Source: a candidate division WWE3 bacterium RIFCSPHIGHO2_01_FULL_40_23
Lineage (GTDB): Bacteria > Patescibacteriota > WWE3 > UBA101185 > 2-01-FULL-41-18
Reading direction: 5' to 3'
Length of the DNA stretch: 64,000 nt
Assembly: GCA_001772615.1 (NCBI GenBank)
Contig: MEUZ01000001.1
Location: 120,623 to 184,622, forward strand
Positions 16,252-29,924 of this stretch are shown piece after piece (the stretch's first letter is position 1; the number at the start of each line of letters is the position of its first letter). Both the position numbers and the translations under genes were made by a program. The notes beneath the pieces were generated by a model. The model worked only from the letters and a program-made list of their open reading frames with translations, did no database searches and was not told the origin of the DNA.

Positions 16252-17190
16252 ATGGCAGCGCAAATTATTAACGGGAAAGAAATAGCAGCTCAAATACTTT
16301 CAGAAGTTAAATCCGAAATCCTAAAGAATAAATTGAATTTAAAACTTGCGATAATTCAAATCGGTGAGGACGAGGCAACAAACATCTACATTAAAAATAA
16401 AATAAAGAGAGCTGACGAAGTTGGAATTAAAACCGAACTTCATAAATACCAGAATGACATAACTGAAGAAGAGGTGGGAAATCTCATCCAAAAGCTAAAC
16501 GTAGATTCCTCCGTCACGGGATTTTTCATTCAAACTCCCATTCCCTCCCATCTGGATTTATTAAAGCTCGTTTCAAAAATAGATTCTAAAAAAGACATTG
16601 ATGGCATGAATCCTTATAACCTAGGTGCATTACTGCAAGGCAGAAGCAGTGTTTTAGTATCTGCTACAGCAGAGGCTGTACTTAAAACACTAGAATATGC
16701 CTACGTGTGCCATACCGGACTTGATCCATGTCATTCTGGACCTGATCCAGAATCTATAAGCCTAGATCCCGGCCTTCGCCGGGATGACAAAGTAAAAGAC
16801 ACTGCACAACCCGATATCAGTAACCCATTAATGGGAAAACACGCCGTTATAATCGGAAGGTCTTTAATTCTTGGAAAACCTCTTTCAGCCCTTTTACTAA
16901 ATAAGGACTGTACTGTAACTTTATGTCACAGCAAAACAAAAAATCTAAAAGAAATTTGTAAACAAGCTGACATTCTCGTAACGGGAACTGGGCTTAGTGA
17001 CTTTATGAAGAAAGACTTTGTTAAAGAAGGGGTTTTTGTTATTGACTGTGGCTCGCCAAAAGCCGAAGTTGATTTTAATAATGTTATAATGAGGGCAGGA
17101 TATATAACACCTGTCCCCGGAGGCATTGGCCCAATAACCATAGCCTCTCTATTAAAAAACTGCCTCAAAGCACACAATCTTCAACAATAG
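16252..17190 (+). CDS. folD: bifunctional methylene-THF dehydrogenase/methenyl-THF cyclohydrolase FolD, carrying an in-frame ~38-aa insertion derived from a palindromic repeat
   Basis: FolD motifs (GKHAVIIGRSLILGKPLSALL, TVTLCHSKT, ADILVTGTG, VIDCG, TPVPGGIGPIT). The segment CHTGLDPCHSGPDPESISLDPGLRRDDKVKDT is encoded by repeat copy E. Confidence 0.8.
   Translation: MAAQIINGKEIAAQILSEVKSEILKNKLNLKLAIIQIGEDEATNIYIKNKIKRADEVGIKTELHKYQNDITEEEVGNLIQKLNVDSSVTGFFIQTPIPSHLDLLKLVSKIDSKKDIDGMNPYNLGALLQGRSSVLVSATAEAVLKTLEYAYVCHTGLDPCHSGPDPESISLDPGLRRDDKVKDTAQPDISNPLMGKHAVIIGRSLILGKPLSALLLNKDCTVTLCHSKTKNLKEICKQADILVTGTGLSDFMKKDFVKEGVFVIDCGSPKAEVDFNNVIMRAGYITPVPGGIGPITIASLLKNCLKAHNLQQ
16729..16787. repeat. 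composite palindromic repeat, copy E, located inside the folD reading frame
   Basis: gtcattctggacctgatccagaatctataagcctagatcccggccttcgccgggatgac. Same two-hairpin architecture as the intergenic copies. Confidence 0.75.
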
Positions 17191-17480: not shown

Positions 17481-17519
17481 GGGCAGGTTAGAAACACAAC
17501 CTGCCCGTTTTACCTTTTA
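17481..17519 (+). terminator. rho-independent terminator (gggcagg...cctgccc + GTTTTACCTTTT)
   Basis: Hairpin plus T-tract between the convergent genes 17254..17472 and glyA. Confidence 0.5.
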
Positions 17520-18857
17520 ATCTATCCCGGGGACGGGGAAGCGTTTGCAGAGCTTTTTTATTTCTTCTCTAATCTTAAGAAGGTTTTTATTCTTCGCAAT
17601 ATCTCTTCTGAATTTCTTTAAATACGCGGCTCTTTCATCTTTACCCTCGGGAAGTTTATATTTTTCAGCTTCCCTTATAACCGAAGCCACCCACTTTCCT
17701 ATCTTTTCCATTTCCTTTTCTTTCATTCCCCTTGAAGTTATGGCGGGGGACCCAAGCCTAATCCCAGAAGGATAAAACGGAGAGGAGGGTTCCATGGGAA
17801 TCATATTTTTATTCACAGTAATACCGGAAATACTTAAAGCATCCTGCACAAAAATGCCGCTTCCCACCCCGTTTGTTTGCGTTAAATCAACAAGGAGCAA
17901 GTGGTTATCGGTGCCGCCCCCAACTAACTTCAAACCCTCCTTTTTTAAAGACCTTGCAAGGGCCTTGGCGTTTCTAACAACCTGCTTAGCATATTTTTTA
18001 AATTTCTCGGAAGACGTCTCTTTAAGGCAAACCGCAATGCCCGCGATTACGTGGTTATGAGGACCCCCTTGCAATCCCGGAAATACAGCTTTATCTATTT
18101 TGTCCCCTAGCTCCGGGTCTTTCTTTAATCCTTTTTTGGTTACCATTATCATTGCACCCCTTGGTCCCCTTAAAGTTATATGTGTTGTGGATGTAATAAT
18201 ATGCACAAAGGGAGCCGGGCTTTTATGCGCACCGCCCGCAACAAGACCAGCAACGTGGGCGATGTCAGCGGCAAGATAAGCCCCCACGTCATCCGCTATT
18301 TTTGAAAAAACTTCAAATTCATACTCTTTGGTGTACGCTGAACCTCCAACCCATATGAGCTTTGGCTTGTGTTCGGATACAAGCCTGATAACCTCCGAAA
18401 AATCCACAACACCTTCGGAATTCACATGATACGGAACGCTATGGTAATAAAGGCCGGAAAAGCTTGTTTTCCATCCGTGAGTTAAGTGCCCACCATCATA
18501 AAGGTTCATACCTAAAACTGTATCCCCAGGTTTTAAAACAGCAAGATAAACCGCATGATTTGCAGGGCTTCCTGAATAAGGCTGTACATTAACATAAGGC
18601 ACATTAAACAGCTTTTTGGCTCTTTCCTGCGCCAGCTCTTCTATTTCATCAATAAATTCATTACCGGCGTGATACCTTTTATACGGATAACCCTCCGAAT
18701 ACTTATTAGTTAAAATTGACCCCACCGCATCCAAAACCGCCGCACTCGTATAGTTTTCAGAAGGAATCATCTCAAGCCCCTCTTTCTGTCTTCCAACTTC
18801 TCTCTCCAATGATTTAAACAAAGACAAATCCGCTTTTTTCAGGATTTTATAATTCAT
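17517..18857 (-). CDS. glyA: serine hydroxymethyltransferase
   Basis: SHMT motifs along the whole length, including PLP-lysine TTHKTLRGPRG, YSGSPAN, GGHLTHG. Confidence 0.9.
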   Translation of the reverse strand: MNYKILKKADLSLFKSLEREVGRQKEGLEMIPSENYTSAAVLDAVGSILTNKYSEGYPYKRYHAGNEFIDEIEELAQERAKKLFNVPYVNVQPYSGSPANHAVYLAVLKPGDTVLGMNLYDGGHLTHGWKTSFSGLYYHSVPYHVNSEGVVDFSEVIRLVSEHKPKLIWVGGSAYTKEYEFEVFSKIADDVGAYLAADIAHVAGLVAGGAHKSPAPFVHIITSTTHITLRGPRGAMIMVTKKGLKKDPELGDKIDKAVFPGLQGGPHNHVIAGIAVCLKETSSEKFKKYAKQVVRNAKALARSLKKEGLKLVGGGTDNHLLLVDLTQTNGVGSGIFVQDALSISGITVNKNMIPMEPSSPFYPSGIRLGSPAITSRGMKEKEMEKIGKWVASVIREAEKYKLPEGKDERAAYLKKFRRDIAKNKNLLKIREEIKKLCKRFPVPGID

Positions 18858-19021: not shown

Positions 19022-19633
19022 ATGCCGGGACTAAATTCAAACAATTCAATAAGAAGAGGAATCTTAAGCTACGATTCAAATTTTAAAGACCGCTGTTTTG
19101 CTAATTATACGGATCTGGAACCGATTATAGGCCATTGCAAAGGCCTTGGTTTAAGGATAGTTCTGACTTCGGGAACATTTGATATGGTTCATATAGGGCA
19201 TGCAAGATACCTTGAGACTGCAAAAAAATTCGGGGACTTTCTGATAGTCGGCGTTGACAGCGATGAAAAAGTGAGAAAAAGAAAAGGGCCTGACAGGCCG
19301 ATAGTTCCCCACACGGAAAGAATGGAAATTTTATCCCACATGAGATATGTAGATGCTGTTGTGCTCAAAGCCATCAACGCTCCAAGATGGGCGCTCATAA
19401 AAATGGCAAAACCTGATGTTTTAATTGCCACTCAAGAAACATACACAAAAGAAGAGCTTATTGAACTTAAAAAATATTGCGGCAAGGTTGTGGTTTTAGA
19501 CCCGATGGCAACCACGTCAACAAGCGCAAAAATAAGAAGGCTTCAAATAAGTATGGCGGGAAGACTTGAGAAAATACTAACCCCTAAACTTTTACAAGCG
19601 ATTGAAGAGTCCCTTGAAGAAGTAAAAAAATGA
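19022..19633 (+). CDS. cytidylyltransferase-like nucleotidyltransferase (TagD/RfaE-domain-II-like)
   Basis: GTFDMVHIGHARYL (HxGH) plus the downstream DSDEKVRKRKGPDRPIVPHTERMEIL pattern. Stop overlaps the next start (ATGA). Confidence 0.55.
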   Translation: MPGLNSNNSIRRGILSYDSNFKDRCFANYTDLEPIIGHCKGLGLRIVLTSGTFDMVHIGHARYLETAKKFGDFLIVGVDSDEKVRKRKGPDRPIVPHTERMEILSHMRYVDAVVLKAINAPRWALIKMAKPDVLIATQETYTKEELIELKKYCGKVVVLDPMATTSTSAKIRRLQISMAGRLEKILTPKLLQAIEESLEEVKK

Positions 19634-20478
19634 AAAAAGTTATAGTAGCTTACATTCCGGTTTTACATGAAGGGTATAGAAGGTTCATTGAAAAACATAA
19701 AGATGCCAAAGTCATTTATATTTTCGGAAAAGATATTATTCTGGAATTTGATCACCTCTCAAAAGAGATTAGGGCACTTGATCCAAAGCTTGTTTTAAAA
19801 TCCCTTGAATCATGGGGCTTAATCTCTAAAGCAAAAATCTTAAAACATAATGATCTTCAAAAACTCAACAACTACAAATACAACATTGTAGTTCCTGACG
19901 AAGATGTGACAAAAGAACTTTCTGAAAAGTACTTAAAGAAAGCTAGTGTTTTCTATGACCCGATATTCCTCCGCTGGGACAAACATAAATCTATGGAGCA
20001 AAAGCCTATTGAAGCCGATCAGAAGATATCCTCGGAAGAATTTGATAAAAACGCAATTAGAGAAACCCTTAAAGCTTCAGAAAGAGCTTCCGACTGGTGG
20101 AGAAGAGTGGGGGCGGCAATAGTTAAAAACAAGAAAATCATTATTATTGCGCACAACAGGCACCTTCCATCACCTCATTCTCCCTATGCAAACGGTGACC
20201 CTAGAAACAATTTCCATAAAGGGGTAAACATAGAATTGTCAACAGCAATTCACGCGGAAGCAGATTTAATCTCCCAAGCCGCCAAGAAGGGAATTCCCTT
20301 AAAGGGAAGCTCTATGTATGTTAGTGTGTTTCCCTGCCCTCCATGTGCAAAACTCGTTGCGCGTTCGGGAATATCAAAATTGTATTATGGAGGAGGGTAT
20401 GGGGTTTTGGATGGCGAGGACATTCTAAAAGCATCCGGGGTAGAAATTATTTATGTGGACTTAATGGCAGAAAAATAA
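19630..20478 (+). CDS. dCMP/cytidine deaminase zinc-binding family with a ~150-aa N-terminal extension of unknown function
   Basis: HAEADLISQA...VFPCPPCAKLV (H-A-E ... PCxxC) in the C-terminal half. Confidence 0.65.
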   Translation: MKKVIVAYIPVLHEGYRRFIEKHKDAKVIYIFGKDIILEFDHLSKEIRALDPKLVLKSLESWGLISKAKILKHNDLQKLNNYKYNIVVPDEDVTKELSEKYLKKASVFYDPIFLRWDKHKSMEQKPIEADQKISSEEFDKNAIRETLKASERASDWWRRVGAAIVKNKKIIIIAHNRHLPSPHSPYANGDPRNNFHKGVNIELSTAIHAEADLISQAAKKGIPLKGSSMYVSVFPCPPCAKLVARSGISKLYYGGGYGVLDGEDILKASGVEIIYVDLMAEK

Positions 20479-20487
20479 GCCGGTTGG

Positions 20488-21444
20488 TTAATTACCTTCC
20501 GGCTTACGAACTGTTCCAACCTTGAACCTCACGGGCTCAAAATCGGGCTTACCCATATCAGGAACCACAAACTGAACGTGTAAGTGCTTCACACTGGCTC
20601 CGGAATATGAGCTCTCTCCAAACCTCAAAAAGAACATCCCTCCGATCACTTTGAAGAAAGCTTCCGCCCAAGTGAGCAGTTCAAACAACTCCACTCCGGC
20701 TTGGGGGTTCATCTCCGAAAGAGTTTCCGCATGGAACTTGTAAATGGCCAGAAGGTGAATACGGGTGTTTGACTTTGGCCATTGGGTTAAGGTGAGAACC
20801 CAGAATTTTCCTTCCCTGATAATCTCCTTGTGATGATACTTGGCAAGGTTTTCAGGGCAGAAAGGGCACACACCTTCAGCCGTAATCCGGCTCATTACAG
20901 CCAGTTGATCGGGTGTCCGCGCGTGGGCAAGATCCACATAGACCTTTTTCCTTTTGTACACTTCAAAGGTGTAATCAAAAGGGTTTTTGGCGTCTTTGGT
21001 ACGCGGATCGGAGCTCACAAGCTCCCATTCAAACTCACTGTATCTAGGGAAGGAGGCATCCCCACCAACTTCAACGTCCACCCTAGTGATATAAAGAAAG
21101 TCCGCTAGAGGGAGAAACATTCTGTACACAAGCTCTCCCCCGATAATAAACACCTCCTTATCCTTCATGTAGCCCGCTTTCAGGAGAGCTTCGTCAATGG
21201 TTAAAGCAGTCTCACACCCATCACATACAGCGGGCCTGCTTACCAGGACCACGTTCTTTCTCCCCGGAAGCGGCCCACCCAGATTGTCTCTTATGGACCT
21301 AAAGGTCTTATGGCCCATGATTACAGGGTGGCCTCCGGTTTTATCGGCGAAGTACTTAAGATCCGCCGGCAAGTTCCAAGGCACCTTTCCATCTTTCCCG
21401 ATCACGCCATTTTTGGAAACGGCCGCAATCAAAGATATGGTCAT
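20488..21444 (-). CDS. folA: dihydrofolate reductase fused to a C-terminal HIT-superfamily (HxHxQ branch, Ap4A phosphorylase/GalT-like) domain
   Basis: N-terminal ~165 aa is DHFR (ISLIAAVSKNGVIGKDGKVPW, GRKNVVLVSR, FIIGGELVY). C-terminal ~150 aa carries CPFC and VKHLHVQFVV. Confidence 0.7.
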   Translation of the reverse strand: MTISLIAAVSKNGVIGKDGKVPWNLPADLKYFADKTGGHPVIMGHKTFRSIRDNLGGPLPGRKNVVLVSRPAVCDGCETALTIDEALLKAGYMKDKEVFIIGGELVYRMFLPLADFLYITRVDVEVGGDASFPRYSEFEWELVSSDPRTKDAKNPFDYTFEVYKRKKVYVDLAHARTPDQLAVMSRITAEGVCPFCPENLAKYHHKEIIREGKFWVLTLTQWPKSNTRIHLLAIYKFHAETLSEMNPQAGVELFELLTWAEAFFKVIGGMFFLRFGESSYSGASVKHLHVQFVVPDMGKPDFEPVRFKVGTVRKPEGN

Positions 21445-21471
21445 ACTCCTTTGCTCCTTTCTTTGCTCTCT

Positions 21472-22392
21472 TCAGATTGCTACCGGAATGCCTTTAATTC
21501 CGGGGTGCGGGTTGTAATCCGACAGAGTGAAGTGCCCCCTTCTGAAAGCAAAGAGATCCGTGATACTTTGATCAAGAACCATCGTAGGAAACGGCCTTGA
21601 CTCCCGCTCAAGCATAGTCTTGACGGCAGGAAGCTGGTCCACAAAAATATGCGCGTCGGAAATGGTGTGAATAAACTCATAAGCTTCCACACCTAAAACC
21701 TGCGCAATCGCCATTAACAACGCGAAGTACTGCACCATGTTAGATGGCACCCCCACCCCCGCGTCACCAGATCTCTGGAACATGTGAAGGGTCAGCTTGC
21801 CATTTAGGATCCTTAGATGAACCCAGCCATGGCACGGAACCACAACCACTTTCTGCTGCCTCCCCGTAACACGGATTGCGTATTGAGGAATCCACGGCGA
21901 GACAAAGTGGGTCCTCAATTGAGGCTGTTCCCTCATCTGCCGCAGAATGTATTCAAACTGATTGAACGATCCACCTTCCGCAGTAGGAAAATTGTGAAAC
22001 GCCGCGCCGTAAGAACCGGGACCAAGATCGCCGGGTTCAAGCCCGCGCTTGGCACACTTTTCAGGAGTGGCCCACTTATCCCACCAGTAGCATCCGTGAG
22101 CTTCAAGTTCCCCTAAAGTTCTGGCTCCGTTAATGAAGGCAAATATCTCCCCGATAGCCTGCTGCCAGATTGTTACGGGCAAGCGTTCCGAAGTTTTCGG
22201 ATCCATGTTTCTCTCTGTGATAACAGGAAATCCGTTGTTCAAACGGAATCTCATTATCCCCGGGGCCATGTAGGTAATGGCATCAATCCCTTGTTGTGAC
22301 TGAACCCGCTCTCCATAGCGAAGAATTCTCCACAGGAGCCTTTTGTACTGACCATCAGGCGTGCGATCTGCTAGAGGTTTCATTCTGCTCAT
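21472..22392 (-). CDS. thyA: thymidylate synthase ThyA
   Basis: VVVVPCHGWVHL...LHMFQRSGDAGVGVPSN...YNPHPGIKGIPVAI aligns with the canonical ThyA active-site and C-terminal motifs. Confidence 0.85.
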   Translation of the reverse strand: MSRMKPLADRTPDGQYKRLLWRILRYGERVQSQQGIDAITYMAPGIMRFRLNNGFPVITERNMDPKTSERLPVTIWQQAIGEIFAFINGARTLGELEAHGCYWWDKWATPEKCAKRGLEPGDLGPGSYGAAFHNFPTAEGGSFNQFEYILRQMREQPQLRTHFVSPWIPQYAIRVTGRQQKVVVVPCHGWVHLRILNGKLTLHMFQRSGDAGVGVPSNMVQYFALLMAIAQVLGVEAYEFIHTISDAHIFVDQLPAVKTMLERESRPFPTMVLDQSITDLFAFRRGHFTLSDYNPHPGIKGIPVAI

Positions 22393-22467: not shown

Positions 22468-23346
22468 CTACTTTAACAACAAAACTCCAACAAATGCCAG
22501 TATTCCGGCTAAAATTTTAAGCCGCCAATGGCTCTTTTCATGAAGGATAACAATTCCCGCTAGAATTGTCAGACTTGATGAGGTGGAAACCACTACGGTA
22601 ACCTTTGAGGCTTCGCCCAAAGATAAGGCTTTTATATACAAATAATATCCGTAAACATTAAAAAAGGCCGTCAGCGGGCTCTTCCAGGAGCCAAGTTTAA
22701 ACTCCCTCTTGATGTCTTTAAGACTAATAAAAGGAAGAAAAATAAAGATGATAGGCAAAAACCATATTAAAGCGGTGTAAAACTCGGAAGTGGTAAAAGA
22801 AGAAGCTCTTTTGTCAAGAAGCCACCCCAATCCCAGAAATAAACTGCAGGCAAAAGCTAACACAAAGTTTTTATCAAAAGACACACTGCCTTTTTTATAA
22901 ACTACAAGAATGTTAGCTCCAACAATAAGAAGCGCGCCCAGTACTTTAAGCAGAGTCAATTGTTCACTATACAAATAGATCGCTCCGAAAAAAGCTATCA
23001 CAGGGGCCAGCCTAAAAAGAATGGTTGCAGTTGAAGCGTCAACTTCTTTTCTAACGTAAAAATGGCTTCTTTCATACAGGCCATAGAATAAAACCACTAG
23101 GAGAATATAGAACCACCCCGTAAGCGATATAGCCGGAAAAGAGAACGAAAAGTTTGTGTCAATAAGAAACAGCAAAAAACCAAACAAGGCTCCCCACAAG
23201 TTAAATACCATGGATGAAGTTCTGGGATTTTCACTTTTTACGGCAAGCAGCCTAAGGAAAAGGTTGTTGGCCGTGAAAAACAAAACGGAAATAAGAGAGT
23301 AAACAAACCAGCTCACAGTATTAATATACCAGATGCTGGGTGACAA
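22468..23346 (-). CDS. DMT-superfamily (EamA-like) 10-TM transporter
   Basis: Two repeated 5-TM halves. Hydropathy only. Confidence 0.45.
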   Translation of the reverse strand: MSPSIWYINTVSWFVYSLISVLFFTANNLFLRLLAVKSENPRTSSMVFNLWGALFGFLLFLIDTNFSFSFPAISLTGWFYILLVVLFYGLYERSHFYVRKEVDASTATILFRLAPVIAFFGAIYLYSEQLTLLKVLGALLIVGANILVVYKKGSVSFDKNFVLAFACSLFLGLGWLLDKRASSFTTSEFYTALIWFLPIIFIFLPFISLKDIKREFKLGSWKSPLTAFFNVYGYYLYIKALSLGEASKVTVVVSTSSSLTILAGIVILHEKSHWRLKILAGILAFVGVLLLK

Positions 23347-23425
23347 CCGTTGCCATCGTGTCCACAGTCAGCGAAGGTTGAAGAAAGTCCCTTTCATCAT
23401 TGCAATAATGGGAGTTTTAACAAAG

Positions 23426-23513
23426 TCATTGCGAAGGCAAAGCCCGAAGCAATCTACAACAGATCCCGCACCTACCACCTCACCTGCTGTCATTCCCGCG
23501 AAAGCGGGAATCT
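23426..23513. repeat. degenerate composite palindromic repeat, copy F
   Basis: gtcattgcgaaggcaaagcccgaagcaatctacaacagatcccgcacc...gtcattcccgcgaaagcgggaatc. Track ORFs 23333..23527 and 23350..23544 overlap it and are probably spurious. Confidence 0.55.
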
Positions 23514-23562
23514 TAACGGAACATTGAACATAGAGCTCATATAAGCTAAAATGCCTCCATAT

Positions 23563-23658: not shown

Positions 23659-24045
23659 ATGAGTCAGGAAGAAATAATAAAATCGTGGAGAGAAAGTGCC
23701 AAAAGAAATTTGGATACAGCCAGAGATTTAATTAAATCAAAGCATTATGATTGGGCACTGTTCCTTGGTGAGCTTGCGCTAGAAAAATCACTGAAAGGAG
23801 CCATCACCAAACTACAGAATGACTCCCCACCTTATACCCACAACCTTGTCAAGCTAGCAGAACTTTCAAGCATAGCATTTACACAACAGGATTTAGAAGA
23901 TCTTGCCCAAATTACTAAATATAATGTCCAGGCAAGATATGATGATATCAAGTATCAGTTATATAAAATGGCAACAAAGGAATATACAGAAGAATGGTTT
24001 ACAAAAATAGAAAGGCTATATTCATGGATAGGAAAACATTATTAA
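23659..24045 (+). CDS. HEPN-domain protein (partner of the downstream MNT; putative toxin-antitoxin pair)
   Basis: All-alpha, with the ALFLGELALEKSLKGAI pattern. Overlaps the next gene by 22 nt. Confidence 0.5.
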   Translation: MSQEEIIKSWRESAKRNLDTARDLIKSKHYDWALFLGELALEKSLKGAITKLQNDSPPYTHNLVKLAELSSIAFTQQDLEDLAQITKYNVQARYDDIKYQLYKMATKEYTEEWFTKIERLYSWIGKHY

Positions 24046-24353
24046 GGGACGAGCCCAAAAATTTAATAAAAACATTGAGAAAGGCGTTTCAAGCTAACGG
24101 TGTGCCCGTTGATAAAATTATAATTTTTGGATCTTATGCAAAAAAAACTAACAGACCTGACAGTGACTTAGACTTATGTGTAGTTTCAAAATCCTTTGGA
24201 AAAGACTCTTTAAAGGAAATGATGGAGCTTACTAAGATATCATCTAGAATTGACCCAATGATTGAAATTCACCCATATAACCCACAGGATCTTAATAATA
24301 AATTTGATCCGTTGGCGAAGGAAATTAGAGAGCATGGGATTTTGGGGTATTAA
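24024..24353 (+). CDS. minimal nucleotidyltransferase (MNT, Pol-beta superfamily)
   Basis: IIIFGSYAKKTNRPDSDLDLCVV (GS-x9-DxD). Start chosen at MDRKTLL. Confidence 0.65.
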   Translation: MDRKTLLRDEPKNLIKTLRKAFQANGVPVDKIIIFGSYAKKTNRPDSDLDLCVVSKSFGKDSLKEMMELTKISSRIDPMIEIHPYNPQDLNNKFDPLAKEIREHGILGY

Positions 24354-24368
24354 ACAGATTGCTGGCAT

Positions 24369-24408
24369 AAGGAGATGGTTGTAGGTTCGAATCCTATCGC
24401 CGGAGCCA
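24369..24408. repeat. 40-nt direct repeat of the 3' end of tRNA-Asn (1 mismatch), att-like
   Basis: aaggagatgGttgtaggttcgaatcctatcgccggagcca versus tRNA positions 23598..23637 (gatgAttg). Overlaps the 3' end of the recombinase gene. Confidence 0.75.
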
Positions 24409-25911
24409 ATTAGACCGTATCCGAACCAAGTTTCGTGATACCAACGCCTCAAACTCTGGTACAAACTCGAAACTGGTTATTGTTCGTTCTTTTTCCAGAA
24501 ACGCCTTTGAAATGAAGAAGCGGAGAAACTGCTTTTGTTGAACCTTGGTCATTGCGTCGTAAAGCTCACCTATATTTTTCATACCCTGGATCACTTTCTC
24601 AATTTCTGAATCTTTGAGGTTAGTTGAGGGCTTATCCATTTCTATTATCTGTGCATCTACTTGTTTTAGTTCTTCCTTCAACGGCTGGTAGCGTGCCTTG
24701 ATTCTTTCCGATTCAACAAGTTCATCTCCACCAAACATTTTATCTTCAAGCACCTTCATCTTTTTATCAAGTATGTCTCTCCTTTGTCTAAGCGTTTTAA
24801 GTTGTTCAGGAACGCTTGTACCTTGCTCCTGTTTTACTTCCAACAGCACATTTCGTAAATTATTTAATGCCTTTTCGGTAAATACCGTGCCATGAAAAAA
24901 TGCGGATACTCTTTTATCTGCTTTCTCCAATGAAACATAGGTTTTCTCACAAGTCTTACATCTAAAATAGTTACCTTTTGGGTGGTACTCGGCAGCCATT
25001 AAACTGCCGCACTTGAGACAATGGGCATACCCAGCTAACAGGGTGGTATATTTTCTTGTGCGGTTTGCACCTTTGTTTCTTTTTTCAAACATAAGTAGAG
25101 ATTTCTTATACCAATCAACTGGCACAATTGGTTCGTGAGCCGCCTTTTCATATATTACCCCGTCATAAGACAGCCCGCCACAATAGAGTATGTTTTTAAG
25201 GATGTTGGTCATTGTATTTTTATTGACCTTACCACCAGAAGTATTTCTCAGACCCTGCTCGTATAAAATGTTTGTTATTGAGTAGACGGTGTGGTTTCCA
25301 GAAATCCACATTTCATAAGCCTTGTAAATAAAATGTTTCCTTTCTGGGTCAGGGTAAATCGGTTTGTCCTTTTGAAATGAGTTACAAAATCCGAGTGGAC
25401 TTTTTCCTGGTTTCATCCCTTTTTCTGCAAGTGCCTTCATGATCCTTTTCGTTTTTTTACCAGTACGCCTCGATTCCAATTGGTTGACCGCCGCAACAAT
25501 TACATCAAGGAAGTCGCCCTCGTCTGTGTCGCCATAATAAGAACCATCTAATGGAATTAGTTTTATGTTTCTTTTTTTCAGGAACGCCTTAACTGTCAGA
25601 TGATCCGCAACATTTCTTGCCAGTCTGCTTGAGTCTTGAACCAGTACGAGATCAACCGTGGCAGCATTGTCATCACAGTAATCCAGCAGTTCTTCCATAT
25701 CAGGTCTGTCCAGGTCTCTCGCACTTCGCCCCGAATCTTCAAATACTTTCAAAATGGTTATGTTGTTTTGACTCACAAAGTTTTGAAAAAGTTGGTCTTG
25801 CACTTCCAAGCTATGTCCTGTAAGAGCCTGGTTTGGTGTTGAAACTCGTTTGTAGCACACAGATTTTAACATTGTGCCTGTCTTTGGTTTTATATCTTCT
25901 AATCCGTACAT
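24394..25911 (-). CDS. large serine recombinase (resolvase/invertase N-domain + recombinase domain + zinc ribbon)
   Basis: Catalytic motif YKRVSTPNQ near the N-terminus, a C-terminal CLKCGS...CKTC zinc ribbon and a coiled-coil tail. True start may be the internal MLKSV. Confidence 0.8.
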   Translation of the reverse strand: MYGLEDIKPKTGTMLKSVCYKRVSTPNQALTGHSLEVQDQLFQNFVSQNNITILKVFEDSGRSARDLDRPDMEELLDYCDDNAATVDLVLVQDSSRLARNVADHLTVKAFLKKRNIKLIPLDGSYYGDTDEGDFLDVIVAAVNQLESRRTGKKTKRIMKALAEKGMKPGKSPLGFCNSFQKDKPIYPDPERKHFIYKAYEMWISGNHTVYSITNILYEQGLRNTSGGKVNKNTMTNILKNILYCGGLSYDGVIYEKAAHEPIVPVDWYKKSLLMFEKRNKGANRTRKYTTLLAGYAHCLKCGSLMAAEYHPKGNYFRCKTCEKTYVSLEKADKRVSAFFHGTVFTEKALNNLRNVLLEVKQEQGTSVPEQLKTLRQRRDILDKKMKVLEDKMFGGDELVESERIKARYQPLKEELKQVDAQIIEMDKPSTNLKDSEIEKVIQGMKNIGELYDAMTKVQQKQFLRFFISKAFLEKERTITSFEFVPEFEALVSRNLVRIRSNWLRR

Positions 25912-25934: not shown

Positions 25935-26819
25935 TTACTTTCCTATTCGTTCTTTTAACATCCTCCTAACAATACCAGTTAGATAAGCAGCGTGGTTACC
26001 GACATACTTCCCGTTTGCTACATCTTCCTTGTACTCACCATACGCCTTCTCCAAAGCCCAAAACTGCTCATTTCTTATAAGGCTAAGGTAGTTATCCATA
26101 CATTGTTCGTGAACTGCTTCGGCAATCTCCTTCGCTTTAAGTTCGCTGTATAAGCTTGGGCGGAATAGTCTTGTTGGGTTCTTACAAACATATTCGGCAT
26201 CGGACTTTTCTTCGCTCTCGTTTCCTACTTTATTAGAAACCGATAAGGTGTTTTCAATCTTCTTTTCAATATCGGTATGGTTATTATAACCTCTGAACTC
26301 CTTTGAATCATTAACACCCTGTTTAATTGCTACACCAGCACTATCCAACATCTCCAACTTCTGATTTTTAACTTCAACCTCTGTACTATCCTCTGACTTT
26401 TTGTCGCCTACAGTACCAACTTCCTGCTGACTTGCCTCCTTGATAAACAAGTGCTCGATGCTGGTTATTTTCTTGTTAGGATCAATAAAATCTGGAAAAT
26501 GAACCTCAAACGAACCTGACCTCCCAGTTCTATCCATATAAAACAATAACCTCTTACTTTTTAAGGACAAAAGTATTTTATTAACATAGTTTTTTGAAAC
26601 TGATTTCTTACCGCCTTCTTTTCCGAAAACATCATCTCTTATAGCCTCCATGTGAGTTGTGCAAATACCATAAGGATTGCATTGTATACGCAGGTAACAA
26701 TATACGAAAAACTCTGCTCGGTTTATTTCACCGTTTTTGTATAAACTGGCAATGTTTCTTGGAAACACTATCCAGTTTGATAATGGGTTTTCAGTTTGAT
26801 TTTCTTGTTCTTTTTTCAT
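25935..26819 (-). CDS. hypothetical island protein (N-terminal winged-helix-like region; possible replication/regulatory role)
   Basis: ORF only. Co-oriented with the recombinase. Confidence 0.35.
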   Translation of the reverse strand: MKKEQENQTENPLSNWIVFPRNIASLYKNGEINRAEFFVYCYLRIQCNPYGICTTHMEAIRDDVFGKEGGKKSVSKNYVNKILLSLKSKRLLFYMDRTGRSGSFEVHFPDFIDPNKKITSIEHLFIKEASQQEVGTVGDKKSEDSTEVEVKNQKLEMLDSAGVAIKQGVNDSKEFRGYNNHTDIEKKIENTLSVSNKVGNESEEKSDAEYVCKNPTRLFRPSLYSELKAKEIAEAVHEQCMDNYLSLIRNEQFWALEKAYGEYKEDVANGKYVGNHAAYLTGIVRRMLKERIGK

Positions 26820-26954
26820 CTTTTCTCCTTACATCTTTCTTGTCTTCATGCAGCGACATCAGAAAACAAGCCAATTGCCGCAGATATTCCAACATTGCTT
26901 TTTCATCAACCTCAACTTCGTGAACTTTTTTTAGTTGTGCAGTTAAATCCGCTT

Positions 26955-27218
26955 TCATACCTGCTCAGCGTTTATTCGCCCTTTCAAAAACTTGATGTTT
27001 GAAAAGTATTCCGAAGCCTCGACAAATAGGTCTTTCCTCCAAAACTTATCGGCAAGCTCCCGCACCTGGTCAGAATCCTCGAACAGGAAAACTGCCTTTT
27101 GTGGATTGACTGGGGATTTTTCTATACCTATTAACGGATGAAAGCACACAACTGCTGCTGCAAGTGCGATGTCATTTATTGTGAAGGGTTTTTGCTCATA
27201 AATCTTTTCTGGTCTCAT
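26955..27218 (-). CDS. hypothetical small protein
   Basis: ORF only. Confidence 0.3.
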   Translation of the reverse strand: MRPEKIYEQKPFTINDIALAAAVVCFHPLIGIEKSPVNPQKAVFLFEDSDQVRELADKFWRKDLFVEASEYFSNIKFLKGRINAEQV

Positions 27219-27365
27219 GGATTTATTGTAGAGAGACCTTGTTGTACAAAATGTGCGGAGTGTTTGAGAGTGTTCTTGATGAAAATGAGTTAGTGTTTAT
27301 AAAGGGGGAATAACAAAATTATGGTTGCAGTCAAACAGATCAAAAATGGTCAAGGAAAAGGCACT

Positions 27366-28439
27366 CTAAACAAAGGTAGCTTTTACTGTATTTCTTTTTT
27401 CATCGACAACAATGGCTAATCTACCTTTGAGTTTATTTCCTTTTTGCAGTTCCTTGTTGGCGTATTCGATTACCGACAGCATTGTTGTTGGGTTGCTTGC
27501 GGATTTTGATTTTTGTAGGTCTTTTTTATTTGCGATTACCTCAAAGACAGATGGGGTTGTTCTTTCTGCACCTAAAGCGTCAAAAGTAAAAGCAAGTAAC
27601 TTCCAATGTTTTGATGAAGCCTTTCCTATTTTGACTGGTTTGCTGCTTCCGTACTGCAAATAGCCGCATCCTTGTTTTTCAAATAACTTAGGTTTTCCCA
27701 GATAGGTGGACTTGGTTGTACCAAATACCCTTTTGAGTGTTGCAACATCGGTTACTTTTACATTTACAAAACAATGATCTGCGGGAAAGAACTCTATCTC
27801 CTCACCAATCGGTATGTTTCTTTCAAAATCCATTTCTTTTGCAGGTAACGGAAGTTTTCTAAAATCAAAAGCTATTTCCAGCAACTGTATCTTTTTCTCC
27901 TGTTCTAAGGCTCGTAGAACGGTCAGGAACGGGGCTTTCGTATCTGGGCTATCTTCTCTCCTCAGCTTTTGTGCCAACCCTGGATTGTCAAAATAAGTAC
28001 CTAAAATCTTTTCCGTTACCACAAACTCGTTACTGTGTTCTTTTTTTGTAATCTCGAATATAGTCTGAAACATACTTTTTTTGAGTCTTTCAAGTGCGTA
28101 AGAATCTACAGCTTCAAGGTCGTGAAGTTTTTCTGCGTATTTTTGCAGATTTTTCCAATCAATTTTTGCTGAGTACGAAGGCAATACTGCTTTGTTGATC
28201 TTCCTGAAACTTTTGAAAACCTTATTATTTCTCAGTTCGGTCAATGTTTCTTCGTTCTTAAATCCACATAATGAAACATCTTTTTTAACGAACTCGTCGT
28301 CGTTTGTGTTCCTCACATATACAAGTTTTCTTGTAGAATCTTTTGTGCCTTTGGAAAATAAATCCAGCAACTGCATTACAAGACTTACCTGATCATATAT
28401 TTTAATTTCTTCCCACAAAGGGGACACATCTAATCTCAT
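27366..28439 (-). CDS. hypothetical 357-aa island protein, no recognisable motif
   Basis: ORF only. Confidence 0.4.
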   Translation of the reverse strand: MRLDVSPLWEEIKIYDQVSLVMQLLDLFSKGTKDSTRKLVYVRNTNDDEFVKKDVSLCGFKNEETLTELRNNKVFKSFRKINKAVLPSYSAKIDWKNLQKYAEKLHDLEAVDSYALERLKKSMFQTIFEITKKEHSNEFVVTEKILGTYFDNPGLAQKLRREDSPDTKAPFLTVLRALEQEKKIQLLEIAFDFRKLPLPAKEMDFERNIPIGEEIEFFPADHCFVNVKVTDVATLKRVFGTTKSTYLGKPKLFEKQGCGYLQYGSSKPVKIGKASSKHWKLLAFTFDALGAERTTPSVFEVIANKKDLQKSKSASNPTTMLSVIEYANKELQKGNKLKGRLAIVVDEKRNTVKATFV

Positions 28440-28560
28440 ATAATCTAATATGCTGATTTTATCACCTACAGCCTGATCGTTCCTGGAAAATCCTTTTCAC
28501 AAGCGAGAACACCCCAGCTCGATTGCTGGGACTCCCAATGTCCAGAAGGCTACCGCAAAT

Positions 28561-28980
28561 TTACTTTATCTTGTTGTATCGAAACTTGACTTCAATACCT
28601 GACCTCGATGGTTCTGGTTTATCCGCCTCAGTAAAATAGTTTTTCAGCTTAAAAATAAACTCTAATGCTTTTAACTGGCTGTTGTGATCTGGTACTGCAA
28701 CCTGCTCTTTTGTTACTGGGTTGCGAATATACTTAACAGCGTCTAATGCTTCTTTGAGTTTCTCAAATAGCACATAATCAGGTAAATCCAACCTTTCATC
28801 ATAATTGTGCAGATGCAGAAGTATTGAGGGTTTTCTTATGTTTTGGCTTCCTATAACCGATGCTATGTGCCTGTCCTTAACATCCTTATATGCGATCAAT
28901 GCTGCTTCCGTTAAAGAACCAGTCTCAATATATTTTTCAACAAAGATACGCTGAGAAACCGTTAAACGCCTATTCATCAT
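28561..28980 (-). CDS. terminase small subunit-like HTH protein
   Basis: N-terminus LTVSQRIFVEKYIETGSLTEAALIAYKDVKDRHIASVIGSQNIRKPSI matches the characteristic TerS N-terminal HTH pattern (LTxKQxxFxxEY...TxAAxxAGYS). Confidence 0.5.
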   Translation of the reverse strand: MMNRRLTVSQRIFVEKYIETGSLTEAALIAYKDVKDRHIASVIGSQNIRKPSILLHLHNYDERLDLPDYVLFEKLKEALDAVKYIRNPVTKEQVAVPDHNSQLKALEFIFKLKNYFTEADKPEPSRSGIEVKFRYNKIK

Positions 28981-29211
28981 AAGAACAGCCTACAAAATCC
29001 AAGTAAGTTTGTAAAATAGTAAAGCAAAGTAAAGTAAACCTAATAAGCCATATCGAAATGACAACTGTTGGTTGCTGATGTATTATGCACCTATCCAAAA
29101 AACAAAAGATACAAACATTATCAGTCTTTGACACTATAGGGTATGTAATGATATAATGTTGTTATAATCGTTTGAAATCTATCCCACAATCCCAGATAAG
29201 GAGAACAAAAA

Positions 29212-29826
29212 ATGAGCAACAACTGTGGTCGTTGCGGTGCTGACCTTAGTCGTGGCGAGGTCACCATCTACGAAATCAAGGACAACGAATATGTCCCCAA
29301 GGAAGTTATCTGCCACAAATGTGCTGAAAACGACAGGCTGCTGTACTTCCAGAAGACTGGAACGCTGAATATCCGACTCATTACCTCGGCATTGCTTCAA
29401 CGGATGGACGAAGTTCGTGGACACACTGTTCCCAATCATGTGTTCGCCGTCCCCACCACCGAGAAACGGAAGATACTGCGTGCCAGGAAGGACATTGACA
29501 AGGCGGTCAAGGACTTTGAGCGGACTGTCTGGTTCGGTGGTCTTCAAGAGTACATCCAGAAAGCTGAATGGAAAGGTCATAGTGCAAACGCCTACGGCGT
29601 CAAGGTCATGGCGTATGCGATGGCTGGGCGTGTCATGATTACGATGGAAAAAGGAAATGCTACCGTCACCGTGATCACCGCCGAAGATGAAAAGCGTTCC
29701 GTGATGGGTCTTCAAAGCGTTGACGCCACTCTGTTCCAGGCTGTTCAATTGCTCAAGGAAGCTGCCCGCAACTACCAACACAAACGCTTGAAGTTCCAGC
29801 CCGATCAGCAAGTAAGCATCCTCTAA
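29212..29826 (+). CDS. zinc-ribbon (CxxC...CxxC) protein of unknown function; ~50% GC, a compositional outlier
   Basis: Strong SD (aaggagaacaaaaaATG). N-terminal CGRCGA...CHKC. The long antisense ORF 29179..29859 is attributed to the high GC content. Confidence 0.5.
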   Translation: MSNNCGRCGADLSRGEVTIYEIKDNEYVPKEVICHKCAENDRLLYFQKTGTLNIRLITSALLQRMDEVRGHTVPNHVFAVPTTEKRKILRARKDIDKAVKDFERTVWFGGLQEYIQKAEWKGHSANAYGVKVMAYAMAGRVMITMEKGNATVTVITAEDEKRSVMGLQSVDATLFQAVQLLKEAARNYQHKRLKFQPDQQVSIL

Positions 29827-29924
29827 CTGGTTAGCCGACATAGAATCGTTGGAAACCAAAGAACCGCCGTAAGGAAGTGTGAAAAAGATTTACTCACACA
29901 TCCCCAAGGCGGTTTTTGTTTGCC

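What the first reader, a model, noticed from the sequence alone, without database searches (positions are those of the whole stretch)
20488..21444. Dihydrofolate reductase fused to a HIT-superfamily (HxHxQ) domain
The N-terminal 165 aa are a canonical DHFR. The C-terminal ~150 aa carry CPFC and HLHVQ motifs typical of the GalT/Ap4A-phosphorylase branch of the HIT superfamily. I am not aware of such a fusion being a described architecture. It couples folate reduction with a nucleotide-hydrolysing or nucleotidyl-transferring domain, in an operon with thyA and next to a dCMP-deaminase-like gene.
Basis: partly seen in the sequence, partly recalled or inferred. Interest (0 to 1): 0.6.

Follow-up and report, generated by a model that had tools for sequence, protein, structure and literature searches.

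The report
DHFR–HIT fusion in thymidylate operon
A groundwater candidate-phylum (WWE3) bacterium really does encode one protein joining dihydrofolate reductase to a histidine-triad nucleotide enzyme, and that uncharacterised HIT gene is a constant member of the thymine-making gene cluster across Patescibacteria, which points to an unrecognised step in their DNA-precursor metabolism.

Summary
Window 20488-21444 (minus strand) is one uninterrupted 318-aa ORF. Residues 1-166 are a complete DHFR (Pfam E=1.4e-49, 46% identical to E. coli FolA). Residues 167-318 are a single-domain HIT protein with CPFC and HLHVQ motifs. The fusion is not an artefact: the identical protein lies on at least 24 contigs from several samples and assemblers. 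DHFR-HIT is also 41 of the best 150 cluster representatives of this HIT family.

In relatives the two parts are usually adjacent genes with overlapping stop and start codons.

The HIT family is specific to Patescibacteria and sits in a near-invariant module: thyA, (folA), hit, facing a cytidylyltransferase-like gene and a dCMP-deaminase-like gene. This holds in about 48 of 50 species genomes and in 40 of 40 informative metagenome loci found by the reciprocal search. A HIT-ThyA fusion also exists.

Assignment to the GalT branch is not supported. The family is a single domain resembling Hint, Fhit or Rv2613c, and the third triad position is H in about 68% of members.

The substrate is unknown. 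My best inference is a pyrimidine deoxynucleotide α-phosphate hydrolase or transferase that feeds dCMP or dUMP to the thymidylate cycle. I found no literature on it.

The parts
20488..21444 (-). Whole folA::hit ORF, 318 aa plus stop codon. It is identical to GenBank OGC50835.1 (candidate division WWE3).
20947..21444 (-). DHFR domain, residues 1-166. The catalytic and binding residues are conserved: D28 (E. coli D27), F32, R62 (R57), G102-G103 (G95-G96), Y107 (Y100) and T120 (T113).
   Evidence: Pfam DHFR_1 E=1.4e-49. 46% identity to E. coli FolA end to end. These columns are invariant in 39 fused homologues.
20491..20946 (-). HIT domain, residues 167-318. It starts directly after the natural DHFR C-terminus, with no linker. 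A family-specific N-terminal helix (residues 178-190, consensus NARxxDQ) precedes the CxxC motif.
   Evidence: AF2 model pLDDT above 90 across the domain.
20857..20868 (-). CPFC motif (C193-C196). It aligns with the CxFC motif of Hint-type HIT proteins. I infer that it forms a structural Zn site together with H238 and H287.
   Evidence: Sequence. Invariant or nearly invariant columns. Alignment to 3oj7 and 5uvm. The Zn role is an inference from knowledge of GalT and bacterial Hit.
20572..20586 (-). Histidine-triad motif H287-L-H289-V-Q291. H289 is the predicted nucleotidyl-accepting nucleophile.
   Evidence: Sequence. H287 and H289 are invariant. The third position is H or Q across the family.
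21445..21471 (-). 27-nt thyA-folA::hit intergenic spacer with an AAAGGAG Shine-Dalgarno-like sequence. The layout looks like a co-transcribed operon.
   Evidence: Sequence. No convincing promoter or terminator lies between the genes.
21472..22392 (-). thyA, thymidylate synthase, immediately upstream.
   Evidence: Pfam Thymidylat_synt E=3.5e-58. TIGR03284 scores 154.7 bits, above its cut-off.
19630..20478 (+). dCMP-deaminase-like gene, convergent with the fusion. It has a conserved N-terminal domain of about 135 aa with unknown function.
19022..19633 (+). Cytidylyltransferase-like gene of the ECT/CCT/TagD/RfaE-II family. It overlaps the deaminase start codon by 4 nt.
17517..18857 (-). SHMT (glyA), the methylene-THF supplier of the thymidylate cycle.
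16252..17190 (+). FolD, with an odd insert of about 40 aa.

Best explanation
This is a genuine bifunctional protein of a WWE3 (Patescibacteria) bacterium. A fully equipped DHFR is joined, without a linker, to a catalytically intact single-domain HIT enzyme.

Origin of the fusion: in Patescibacteria, folA and hit are commonly adjacent genes with overlapping stop and start codons. The fusion arose when that overlap was lost. This has happened many times in the family.

Setting: the HIT gene is a core member of a conserved module. It reads thyA, (folA), hit, (degenerate hit2), facing a cytidylyltransferase-like gene and a dCMP-deaminase-like gene. SHMT and FolD lie nearby.

Inferred mechanism of the HIT domain: His289 attacks the α-phosphate of a pyrimidine (deoxy)nucleotide conjugate, which could be dCTP, dUTP or a (d)CDP-alcohol made by the neighbouring cytidylyltransferase. 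This forms a covalent nucleotidyl-histidine. Water, or possibly phosphate, resolves it and releases the dCMP or dUMP that the deaminase and ThyA convert to dTMP. The DHFR half then recycles the dihydrofolate produced by ThyA. HIT enzymes are dimers, so the fusion would give a dimeric DHFR, as in protozoan DHFR-TS.

What is shown: the ORF, both domain identities, the conservation of catalytic residues, the synteny and the recurrence of the fusion.

What is inferred: the substrate, the choice between hydrolase and phosphorylase, the Zn site and the oligomeric state.
For: ORF and domains.

Independent assemblies of the identical protein.

Recurrence of fusions: in the exhaustive profile search, 41 DHFR-HIT, 1 DHFR-HIT-HIT and 1 HIT-ThyA fall among the best 150 representatives. 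Five of 50 GTDB species loci are fused in frame. Twelve of the 17 loci with thyA-folA-hit order keep separate genes whose reading frames overlap.

Both halves are under constraint. In 39 fused homologues that are only 34-48% identical to the window protein, the DHFR residues (D28, F32, T36, G44, T47, L59, G102, G103) and the HIT residues (C193, P194, C196, H238, R274, G276, H287, H289) are invariant.

HIT superfamily membership: the family profile hits PDB HIT proteins at 5.6e-8, aligned from CxFC through HxHxH. Pfam HIT or DcpS_C matches about 80% of members.

Structure: the AF2 model has pLDDT 94.2 and pTM 0.80, and the order of secondary-structure elements fits a HIT fold.

Synteny: the order thyA, (folA), hit facing DEAM and CTPT holds in essentially all 50 Patescibacteria loci. 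In the reciprocal search with the deaminase N-domain, 40 of 40 informative metagenome loci have it.

Precedent for a dCTP-to-dCMP step feeding dCMP deaminase and thymidylate synthesis: human DCTPP1 (PMC7162842).
Against: No substrate evidence exists. The window's HIT domain alone does not reach any Pfam threshold. A fold search restricted to the HIT domain could not be run, so the fold rests on profiles and on AF2 secondary structure.

Nucleoside-triphosphate pyrophosphatase activity is not a typical HIT reaction (my knowledge). A two-enzyme route from dCTP to dCMP seems needlessly complex.

The H/Q variability at the third triad position, and the NCBIfam hits to Ap4A phosphorylase, leave phosphorolysis or transfer open.

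Conserved adjacency could partly reflect an operon inherited by descent within one superphylum.

I could not test whether these genomes lack Dut, Dcd or MazG.
Confidence: 0.6

Rival explanations
1. Artefact: two adjacent genes (folA and hit) were merged by a sequencing or assembly indel, so no fusion protein exists in the cell.
For: In 12 of 17 related loci with the same gene order, the two genes are separate and their frames overlap, so a single-base error could fuse them. Fitch parsimony on a neighbour-joining tree needs about 30 changes of state. Some of those could be errors in metagenome data.
Against: The identical 318-aa ORF occurs on at least 24 contigs from different samples, read sets and assemblers, and in two GenBank records. 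The junction has no Met start or stop remnant in frame. Forty-one diverse fused representatives keep both domains intact.
Confidence: 0.03
2. The HIT domain is a GalT- or Apa-type nucleotidyl transferase or phosphorylase. It would transfer an NMP to phosphate or to a sugar phosphate, for example NDP-X + Pi giving NDP + X-P, possibly acting on the product of the neighbouring cytidylyltransferase-like enzyme.
For: The window protein, and about 29% of motifs in the family, carry HxHxQ. Weak hits exist to DUF4931_N (11 of 113), to GalT (E=2.8; NCBIfam GalT families match 4 and 2 of 113) and to actinobacterial ATP adenylyltransferase (26 of 113, best 1.2e-9). A nucleotidyltransferase paired with a HIT phosphorylase is a known chemical combination (my knowledge).
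Against: It is a single domain of about 150 aa, not the double HIT-like architecture of GalT. The best profile matches are Hint and Fhit types. Most family members have HxHxH, and the H or Q state does not track the fusion state. The net reaction, NTP + Pi giving NDP + PPi, has no obvious role in a thymidylate module.
Confidence: 0.2
3. The HIT domain is a generic housekeeping Hint-type phosphoramidase or an aprataxin-like repair enzyme. Its position next to folA and thyA would then be historical hitch-hiking with no pathway meaning.
For: The closest solved relatives are uncharacterised Hint-like proteins, Fhit and aprataxin. No substrate data exist.
Against: Adjacency is kept in about 90 independent loci across divergent Patescibacteria classes, despite local rearrangements (folA moves while hit stays next to thyA). 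Fusion has occurred independently to both DHFR and ThyA. The family has its own N-terminal helix and the RFG motif in place of the Hint NxG. Weak homologues outside the CPR lack this context (loci L060-L072).
Confidence: 0.15
4. The HIT domain is mainly a structural dimerisation or regulatory module for DHFR and ThyA, a scaffold for a thymidylate metabolon, with little catalytic role.
For: HIT proteins are obligate dimers (my knowledge). Degenerate second HIT copies that lack CxxC and the triad exist in many loci and in HIT-HIT fusions. pTM of 0.80 suggests a defined two-domain arrangement.
Against: The nucleophile histidine and its neighbours (H287, H289, the Ser/Thr of the GASV motif, R274, G276) are invariant across fused and free forms. 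That pattern indicates retained catalysis.
Confidence: 0.05

Closest known systems
Bifunctional DHFR-TS of protozoa and plants
   Same: DHFR sits at the N-terminus and is fused to a dimeric enzyme of the same thymidylate pathway. The fusion partners are also found as adjacent genes in other organisms.
   Different: The partner here is a HIT domain, not thymidylate synthase. ThyA is a separate upstream gene. There is no linker or crossover helix. This is a bacterial (CPR) lineage.
Hint/Fhit-type single-domain HIT hydrolases (e.g. PDB 3oj7, 5uvm, 4zgl, 1fhi)
   Same: A single α+β domain of about 150 aa. It has an N-terminal CxFC, the conserved His before the long helix, the G-x-S/T-V-x-H-φ-H-φ-[H/Q] catalytic strand, and the predicted covalent nucleotidyl-His chemistry.
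   Different: It has an extra conserved N-terminal helix (NARxxDQ) and R-F-G instead of the Hint N-x-G motif. The third triad residue is often Gln. It is restricted to Patescibacteria and locked into the thyA module.
Rv2613c-type ATP adenylyltransferase / Ap4A phosphorylase (PDB 3ano; NCBIfam NF052622)
   Same: A single HIT domain with CPFC-like and HxHxH motifs. It is the best-matching curated NCBIfam family, hitting 26 of 113 members with best E=1.2e-9. The PDB profile hit is E=6.6e-3.
   Different: The matches are weak and partial. The window protein itself does not match. Nothing indicates an Ap4A substrate, and the genomic context is different.
GalT (galactose-1-phosphate uridylyltransferase), HxHxQ branch
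   Same: The CPFCP and HxHxQ motifs of the window protein. A Zn site built from CxxC and His is plausible.
   Different: GalT has two HIT-like halves in about 350 aa, whereas this is one domain. The Q is not conserved in the family. Pfam GalT domains match 1 of 113 members.
NitFhit Rosetta-stone fusion (PDB 1ems)
   Same: A HIT enzyme fused to a metabolically linked enzyme that is encoded separately in other species. 1ems appears among the profile hits.
   Different: The partner is a nitrilase, the lineage is animals, and the HIT is a true Fhit.
DCTPP1 / dUTPase (functional analogues only)
   Same: The proposed role is to make the pyrimidine dNMP that feeds dCMP deaminase and thymidylate synthase (PMC7162842).
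   Different: The folds are unrelated (all-α MazG-like, or β-trimer). No activity has been shown for the HIT protein.

Membership tests
Dihydrofolate reductase (FolA, Pfam PF00186) | Full-length match to the family profile above the curated threshold | tested here: met
   168.3 bits against a cut-off of 25, covering model positions 1-159 of 159. 46% identity to E. coli FolA end to end.
Dihydrofolate reductase (FolA, Pfam PF00186) | Catalytic Asp27, the folate-binding Arg57, the GG (95-96) NADPH-binding motif, Tyr100 and Thr113 (E. coli numbering) | tested here: met
   D28, R62, G102-G103, Y107 and T120 align with these residues. D28, G102 and G103 are invariant, and R62 and T120 are at least 90% conserved, in 39 fused homologues.
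Dihydrofolate reductase (FolA, Pfam PF00186) | NADPH-dependent reduction of dihydrofolate | not testable with these tools
   Requires an enzyme assay or complementation of an E. coli folA mutant.
HIT superfamily (Pfam clan; PF01230 / PF11969) | Histidine-triad motif H-φ-H-φ-[H/Q]-φ-φ on the last core strand | tested here: met
   H287-L-H289-V-Q291-F-V-V. H287 and H289 are invariant.
HIT superfamily (Pfam clan; PF01230 / PF11969) | Significant profile similarity to HIT families | tested here: met
   The window domain alone is sub-threshold (DcpS_C E=0.035). The family profile hits PDB HIT proteins at 5.6e-8. Of 113 family members, 91 match DcpS_C and 90 match HIT at E<=0.01.
HIT superfamily (Pfam clan; PF01230 / PF11969) | α+β HIT fold shown by structure comparison | tested here: inconclusive
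HIT superfamily (Pfam clan; PF01230 / PF11969) | Covalent nucleotidyl-histidine intermediate and nucleotide α-phosphate cleavage | not testable with these tools
   Needs biochemistry (H289A mutant, a radiolabelled NMP-enzyme adduct).
   There is one HIT domain of about 150 aa. Free-standing homologues are 139-162 aa.
   Q is present in the window protein. Across the family the counts are H 110, Q 47, N 3 and E 1.
   GalP_UDP_tr_C matches 1 of 113, Ap4A_phos_N 1 of 113 and DUF4931_N 11 of 113. The PDB GalT hit has E=2.8.
Rv2613c-type ATP adenylyltransferase (NF052622) | Match to the curated family model | tested here: inconclusive
   26 of 113 family members match at E<=0.01 (best 1.2e-9), but the window domain does not. 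PDB 3ano has E=6.6e-3.
Bifunctional DHFR-TS | Thymidylate synthase domain in the same polypeptide as DHFR | tested here: not met
   ThyA is a separate ORF at 21472-22392, 27 nt upstream.

The most novel reading that the evidence does not exclude
The HIT enzyme, the cytidylyltransferase-like enzyme and the unknown N-terminal domain of the dCMP deaminase may together form an undescribed, Patescibacteria-wide route to the dUMP precursor of thymidylate. Two versions are possible. In one, dCTP is converted to a dCDP-alcohol, then to dCMP, then to dUMP. In the other, the HIT acts as a non-homologous dCTP or dUTP pyrophosphatase. In some lineages the route would be physically coupled to DHFR or ThyA as a metabolon. 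That would be a new HIT-catalysed step in DNA-precursor synthesis.
Probability: 0.3. Interest if true: 0.75.

Novelty: new variant of a known kind. Interest (0 to 1): 0.55.

Why it matters
Patescibacteria (CPR) have minimal genomes and depend on salvaged nucleotides. A gene that is kept beside thyA in essentially every sampled lineage, and that has fused repeatedly to DHFR and once to ThyA, is very likely needed for making dTMP. Yet no HIT enzyme has a place in textbook thymidylate metabolism.

Identifying its substrate would fill a gap in CPR metabolic reconstructions. It would give a function to a large HIT subfamily currently annotated as hypothetical or merely as dihydrofolate reductase. 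It could also reveal a non-canonical source of dCMP or dUMP.

The fusion is a ready-made Rosetta-stone argument and a convenient construct for biochemistry. It also shows that automated annotation misses the second domain: only DHFR_1 is recorded for this protein.

Tried and rejected
Fold searches:
- Foldseek against PDB with the first AF2 model (poor DHFR half, good HIT half) still returned only DHFR entries in the rows shown, so it gave no information on the HIT fold.

Searches with single sequences:
- Pfam, NCBIfam and PDB searches with the HIT domain alone gave only sub-threshold hints. Family profiles were needed.

Neighbouring genes:
- The deaminase N-terminal domain has no Pfam hit and no credible PDB-profile hit; the best were thermosome matches at E of about 0.007 and implausible.
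- hhalign against the neighbouring cytidylyltransferase family aligned only the HxG[HY] motif, with probability 6%. I do not accept this as homology.

Phage and defence links:
- The viral contig scan for the HIT family found nothing.
- PHROGs gave only a marginal hit to a family of unknown function.
- PADLOC gave no defence-system hit for the fusion, ThyA or the cytidylyltransferase-like protein. Only the deaminase core resembles the dCTPase model. I therefore dropped a phage or defence origin.

Other:
- Literature searches for a DHFR-HIT fusion or a CPR thymidylate cluster with a HIT gene found nothing relevant.
It worked with a narrower alignment.
- The promoter and terminator scan around the operon was uninformative.
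- The rest of the window contains no dut, tmk or RNR gene that could constrain the pathway.
Full report

The feature lies on the minus strand. Window 20488..21444 is a single ATG-initiated ORF of 318 codons with no internal stop.

Pfam DHFR_1 matches residues 2-165 over the entire model, with E=1.4e-49. That alignment runs to the last FolA residue, so K166 corresponds to R159. The DHFR is therefore complete, and the second domain starts immediately after it with no linker.

The DHFR functional residues are all present: D28 (E. coli D27), F32, R62 (R57), G102-G103, Y107 and T120.

CPFC is residues 193-196 (nt 20857-20868). HLHVQ is residues 287-291 (nt 20572-20586).

**2. Is the fusion an artefact?**

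No. An exact-sequence look-up finds the same 318-aa product on at least 24 contigs. They come from ENA, JGI and Logan assemblies of different runs and assemblers. The protein is also deposited as OGC50835.1 and OGC55810.1 from candidate division WWE3. It is named 'hypothetical protein' in GenBank and 'dihydrofolate reductase' in UniRef.

The architecture is also recurrent. A profile of the HIT domain was searched exhaustively against 1.84 billion cluster representatives and gave 1161 hits at E<=1e-3. The best 150 break down as follows:
- 41 DHFR-HIT fusions (247-340 aa)
- 1 DHFR-HIT-HIT
- 4 HIT-HIT
- 1 HIT-ThyA (HRH31222.1)
- the rest free-standing, mostly about 145-165 aa

Thirty-eight fused homologues, aligned with the window protein, are only 34-48% identical to it. 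They keep the DHFR residues and the HIT residues C193, P194, C196, H238, R274, G276, H287 and H289 invariant. Both halves are therefore under purifying selection.

**3. How did it arise?**

A scan of GTDB species genomes returned 63 loci. The 50 good ones (L010-L059) are Patescibacteria by the record titles of most; eight titles give another taxon and eight give none.

tblastn with the window's neighbouring proteins shows a near-invariant arrangement. It reads thyA, (folA), hit on one strand, facing the deaminase-like gene and the cytidylyltransferase-like gene on the other. SHMT and FolD are often nearby.

Seventeen loci have the order thyA-folA-hit. In 12 of them the two genes are separate, and the hit reading frame is already open, in a different frame, across the end of folA. 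In 5 they are fused in frame: L024, L034, L040, L044 and L057, whose record titles name different lineages.

Fitch parsimony on a neighbour-joining tree of 175 HIT domains needs about 30 fused/unfused changes. This is a rough figure, but it indicates many independent events.

The window's fusion is thus a 'stop-codon-loss' product of a translationally coupled gene pair.

**4. What is the C-terminal domain?**

On its own it fails every curated threshold. Its best hits are Pfam DcpS_C at E=0.035, DUF4931_N at 0.22 and PDB GalT at E=2.8.

Family profiles settle the question. A 113-sequence profile hits solved HIT proteins at 5.6e-8 (3oj7). Further hits include 5uvm, 4zgl, Fhit (1.7e-5), aprataxin (2e-3) and Rv2613c Ap4A phosphorylase (6.6e-3). 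The alignments run from CxFC through the HxHxH strand.

Member-by-member scans gave these counts out of 113:

| Library | Family | Members matching |
|---|---|---|
| Pfam | DcpS_C | 91 |
| Pfam | HIT (PF01230) | 90 |
| Pfam | CwfJ_C_1 | 23 |
| Pfam | DUF4931_N | 11 |
| Pfam | GalP_UDP_tr_C | 1 |
| Pfam | Ap4A_phos_N | 1 |
| NCBIfam | Actinobacterial ATP adenylyltransferase | 26 |
| NCBIfam | Mycoplasma HinT | 13 |

An AF2 model built on the fused alignment is confident (pLDDT 94.2, pTM 0.80). Its order of secondary-structure elements fits a HIT fold preceded by a family-specific helix. A structure search restricted to the HIT domain could not be done.

The third triad position is H in 110 motifs, Q in 47, N in 3 and E in 1. 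It does not correlate with the fusion state.

Conclusion: this is a single-domain HIT enzyme related to Hint, Fhit and Rv2613c, with intact catalytic residues. It is not a member of the two-domain GalT branch. By analogy with GalT and bacterial Hit proteins (my knowledge), C193, C196, H238 and H287 probably form a structural zinc site, and H289 is the nucleophile.

**5. What does it do?**

No substrate can be read from sequence, but the context is unusually strong. A reciprocal search started from the deaminase N-terminal domain and returned 80 metagenome loci. In all 40 loci with at least 3 kb of sequence downstream of the deaminase gene, both hit and thyA are present. The cytidylyltransferase-like gene directly precedes the deaminase gene in nearly all 80 loci.

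When folA relocates, hit still stays next to thyA.

The family was not found in viral contigs. The fusion protein matches no model in the defence-system catalogue. Its weak homologues outside the CPR lack this context.

The other genes of the module have clear roles in the thymidylate cycle:
- The deaminase core is dCMP-deaminase-like. Its best PDB hits are the cyanophage and T4 dCMP deaminases.
- ThyA passes the TIGR03284 cut-off.
- SHMT, FolD and DHFR complete the cycle.

The two unexplained catalysts are the HIT enzyme and the ECT/CCT/TagD-like nucleotidyltransferase.

The reading that fits all of this best is that the HIT enzyme generates the pyrimidine deoxynucleoside monophosphate that enters the cycle. 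It would do so either directly from dCTP or dUTP, or from a (d)CDP-alcohol made by the cytidylyltransferase. The reaction would go through a covalent His289-NMP intermediate.

There is a precedent for the need for such a step. Human DCTPP1 provides dCMP for thymidylate biosynthesis (PMC7162842).

My probabilities are as follows:
- About 0.9 that the protein is a real bifunctional DHFR-HIT.
- About 0.6 that the HIT half works in pyrimidine deoxynucleotide or thymidylate metabolism.
- About 0.3 for the specific role of supplying dCMP or dUMP.

Phosphorolysis or transfer instead of hydrolysis remains open.

**6. Comparison with what is known, and novelty**

In logic this resembles the DHFR-TS and NitFhit Rosetta-stone fusions. 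In chemistry it resembles Hint and Fhit hydrolases.

It is not DHFR-TS, because ThyA is a separate gene. It is not GalT, for the reasons given in section 4.

Six full-text searches found no description of a DHFR-HIT architecture or of a HIT gene in a thymidylate cluster. Public annotation recognises only the DHFR half.

I rate it a new variant of a known kind. It combines a previously undescribed but widespread domain architecture with a Patescibacteria-specific HIT subfamily tied to thymidylate synthesis. Interest is moderate to good (0.55). The fusion itself is ordinary in evolutionary terms, but it flags a conserved enzyme of unknown function in an otherwise fully understood core pathway.

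**7. Caveats**

- Functional inference rests on synteny and fusions within one superphylum.
- The tree-based count of fusion events is crude.
- Some metagenomic 'fusions' among the 41 could be indel errors. The window's own is not.
- The E. coli FolA sequence and the GalT and Hit zinc-site analogy come from memory.

Noticed in passing
window 19630-20040 (+), the N-terminal ~135 aa of the deaminase-like gene; also all loci L010-L155: The dCMP-deaminase-like protein carries a strongly conserved N-terminal domain with motifs YxPVLHxGY, RALxP, PDEDV and FLRWD. It has no Pfam hit and no credible PDB-profile hit. Only the HxG[HY] motif aligns weakly with the adjacent cytidylyltransferase family (hhalign probability 6%). 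It is an uncharacterised domain that always travels with the module.
   Followed up: partly
e.g. L078 7060-7431, L080 3846-4235, L099 7029-7409; proteins P0067, P0119, P0136, P0162, P0143: Many loci (16 of 40 metagenome loci) have a second, divergent HIT paralogue between hit and the deaminase gene. In HIT-HIT fusion proteins the second half lacks both CxxC and the histidine triad. This looks like a degenerate partner subunit, reminiscent of the pseudo-dimeric GalT architecture.
   Followed up: partly
protein P0047/P0174 (GenBank HRH31222.1, Candidatus Paceibacterota): A 464-aa HIT-ThyA fusion exists, with HIT at the N-terminus. It is annotated only as thymidylate synthase. It is a second, independent Rosetta-stone link between this HIT family and the thymidylate cycle.
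   Followed up: partly
window ~16720-16800 (+), inside FolD (16252-17190): FolD has an insert of about 40 aa (CHTGLDPCHSGPDPESISLDPGLRRDDKV) between its two Pfam domains. The insert is encoded by DNA with two GC-rich hairpin-like palindromes. The FolD in relative L008 is 272 aa. No second copy was found in the window by blastn-short. It may be an in-frame insertion of a palindromic element.
   Followed up: partly
window 23333-23544 (+): Two overlapping spurious-looking ORFs contain 'VIPAKAGI' and 'CHSRESGNL' peptides. Such peptides are typical translations of a GC-rich palindromic repeat. They lie in the intergenic region upstream of the EamA-thyA operon.
   Followed up: no
window 23659-25911 and ~25935-29900: A HEPN / minimal-nucleotidyltransferase pair (23659-24353, +) and a large serine recombinase (24394-25911, -) sit just beyond the EamA gene. 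Further along are several ORFs with no family match and a weak Terminase_2 hit. This may be an integrated mobile element or prophage remnant.
   Followed up: no
locus L003 5899-6760 (assembly ERZ28564264): In one independent assembly of the same organism, the deaminase-like gene is split into 190-aa and 102-aa ORFs, while the DHFR-HIT ORF is intact. This is either an assembly indel or strain-level pseudogenisation of the deaminase.
   Followed up: no
locus L018 7033-9998: In one Paceibacterota genome the module is collinear on one strand (thyA, hit, cytidylyltransferase-like, deaminase-like) instead of convergent. This fits all four genes acting as one functional unit.
   Followed up: no
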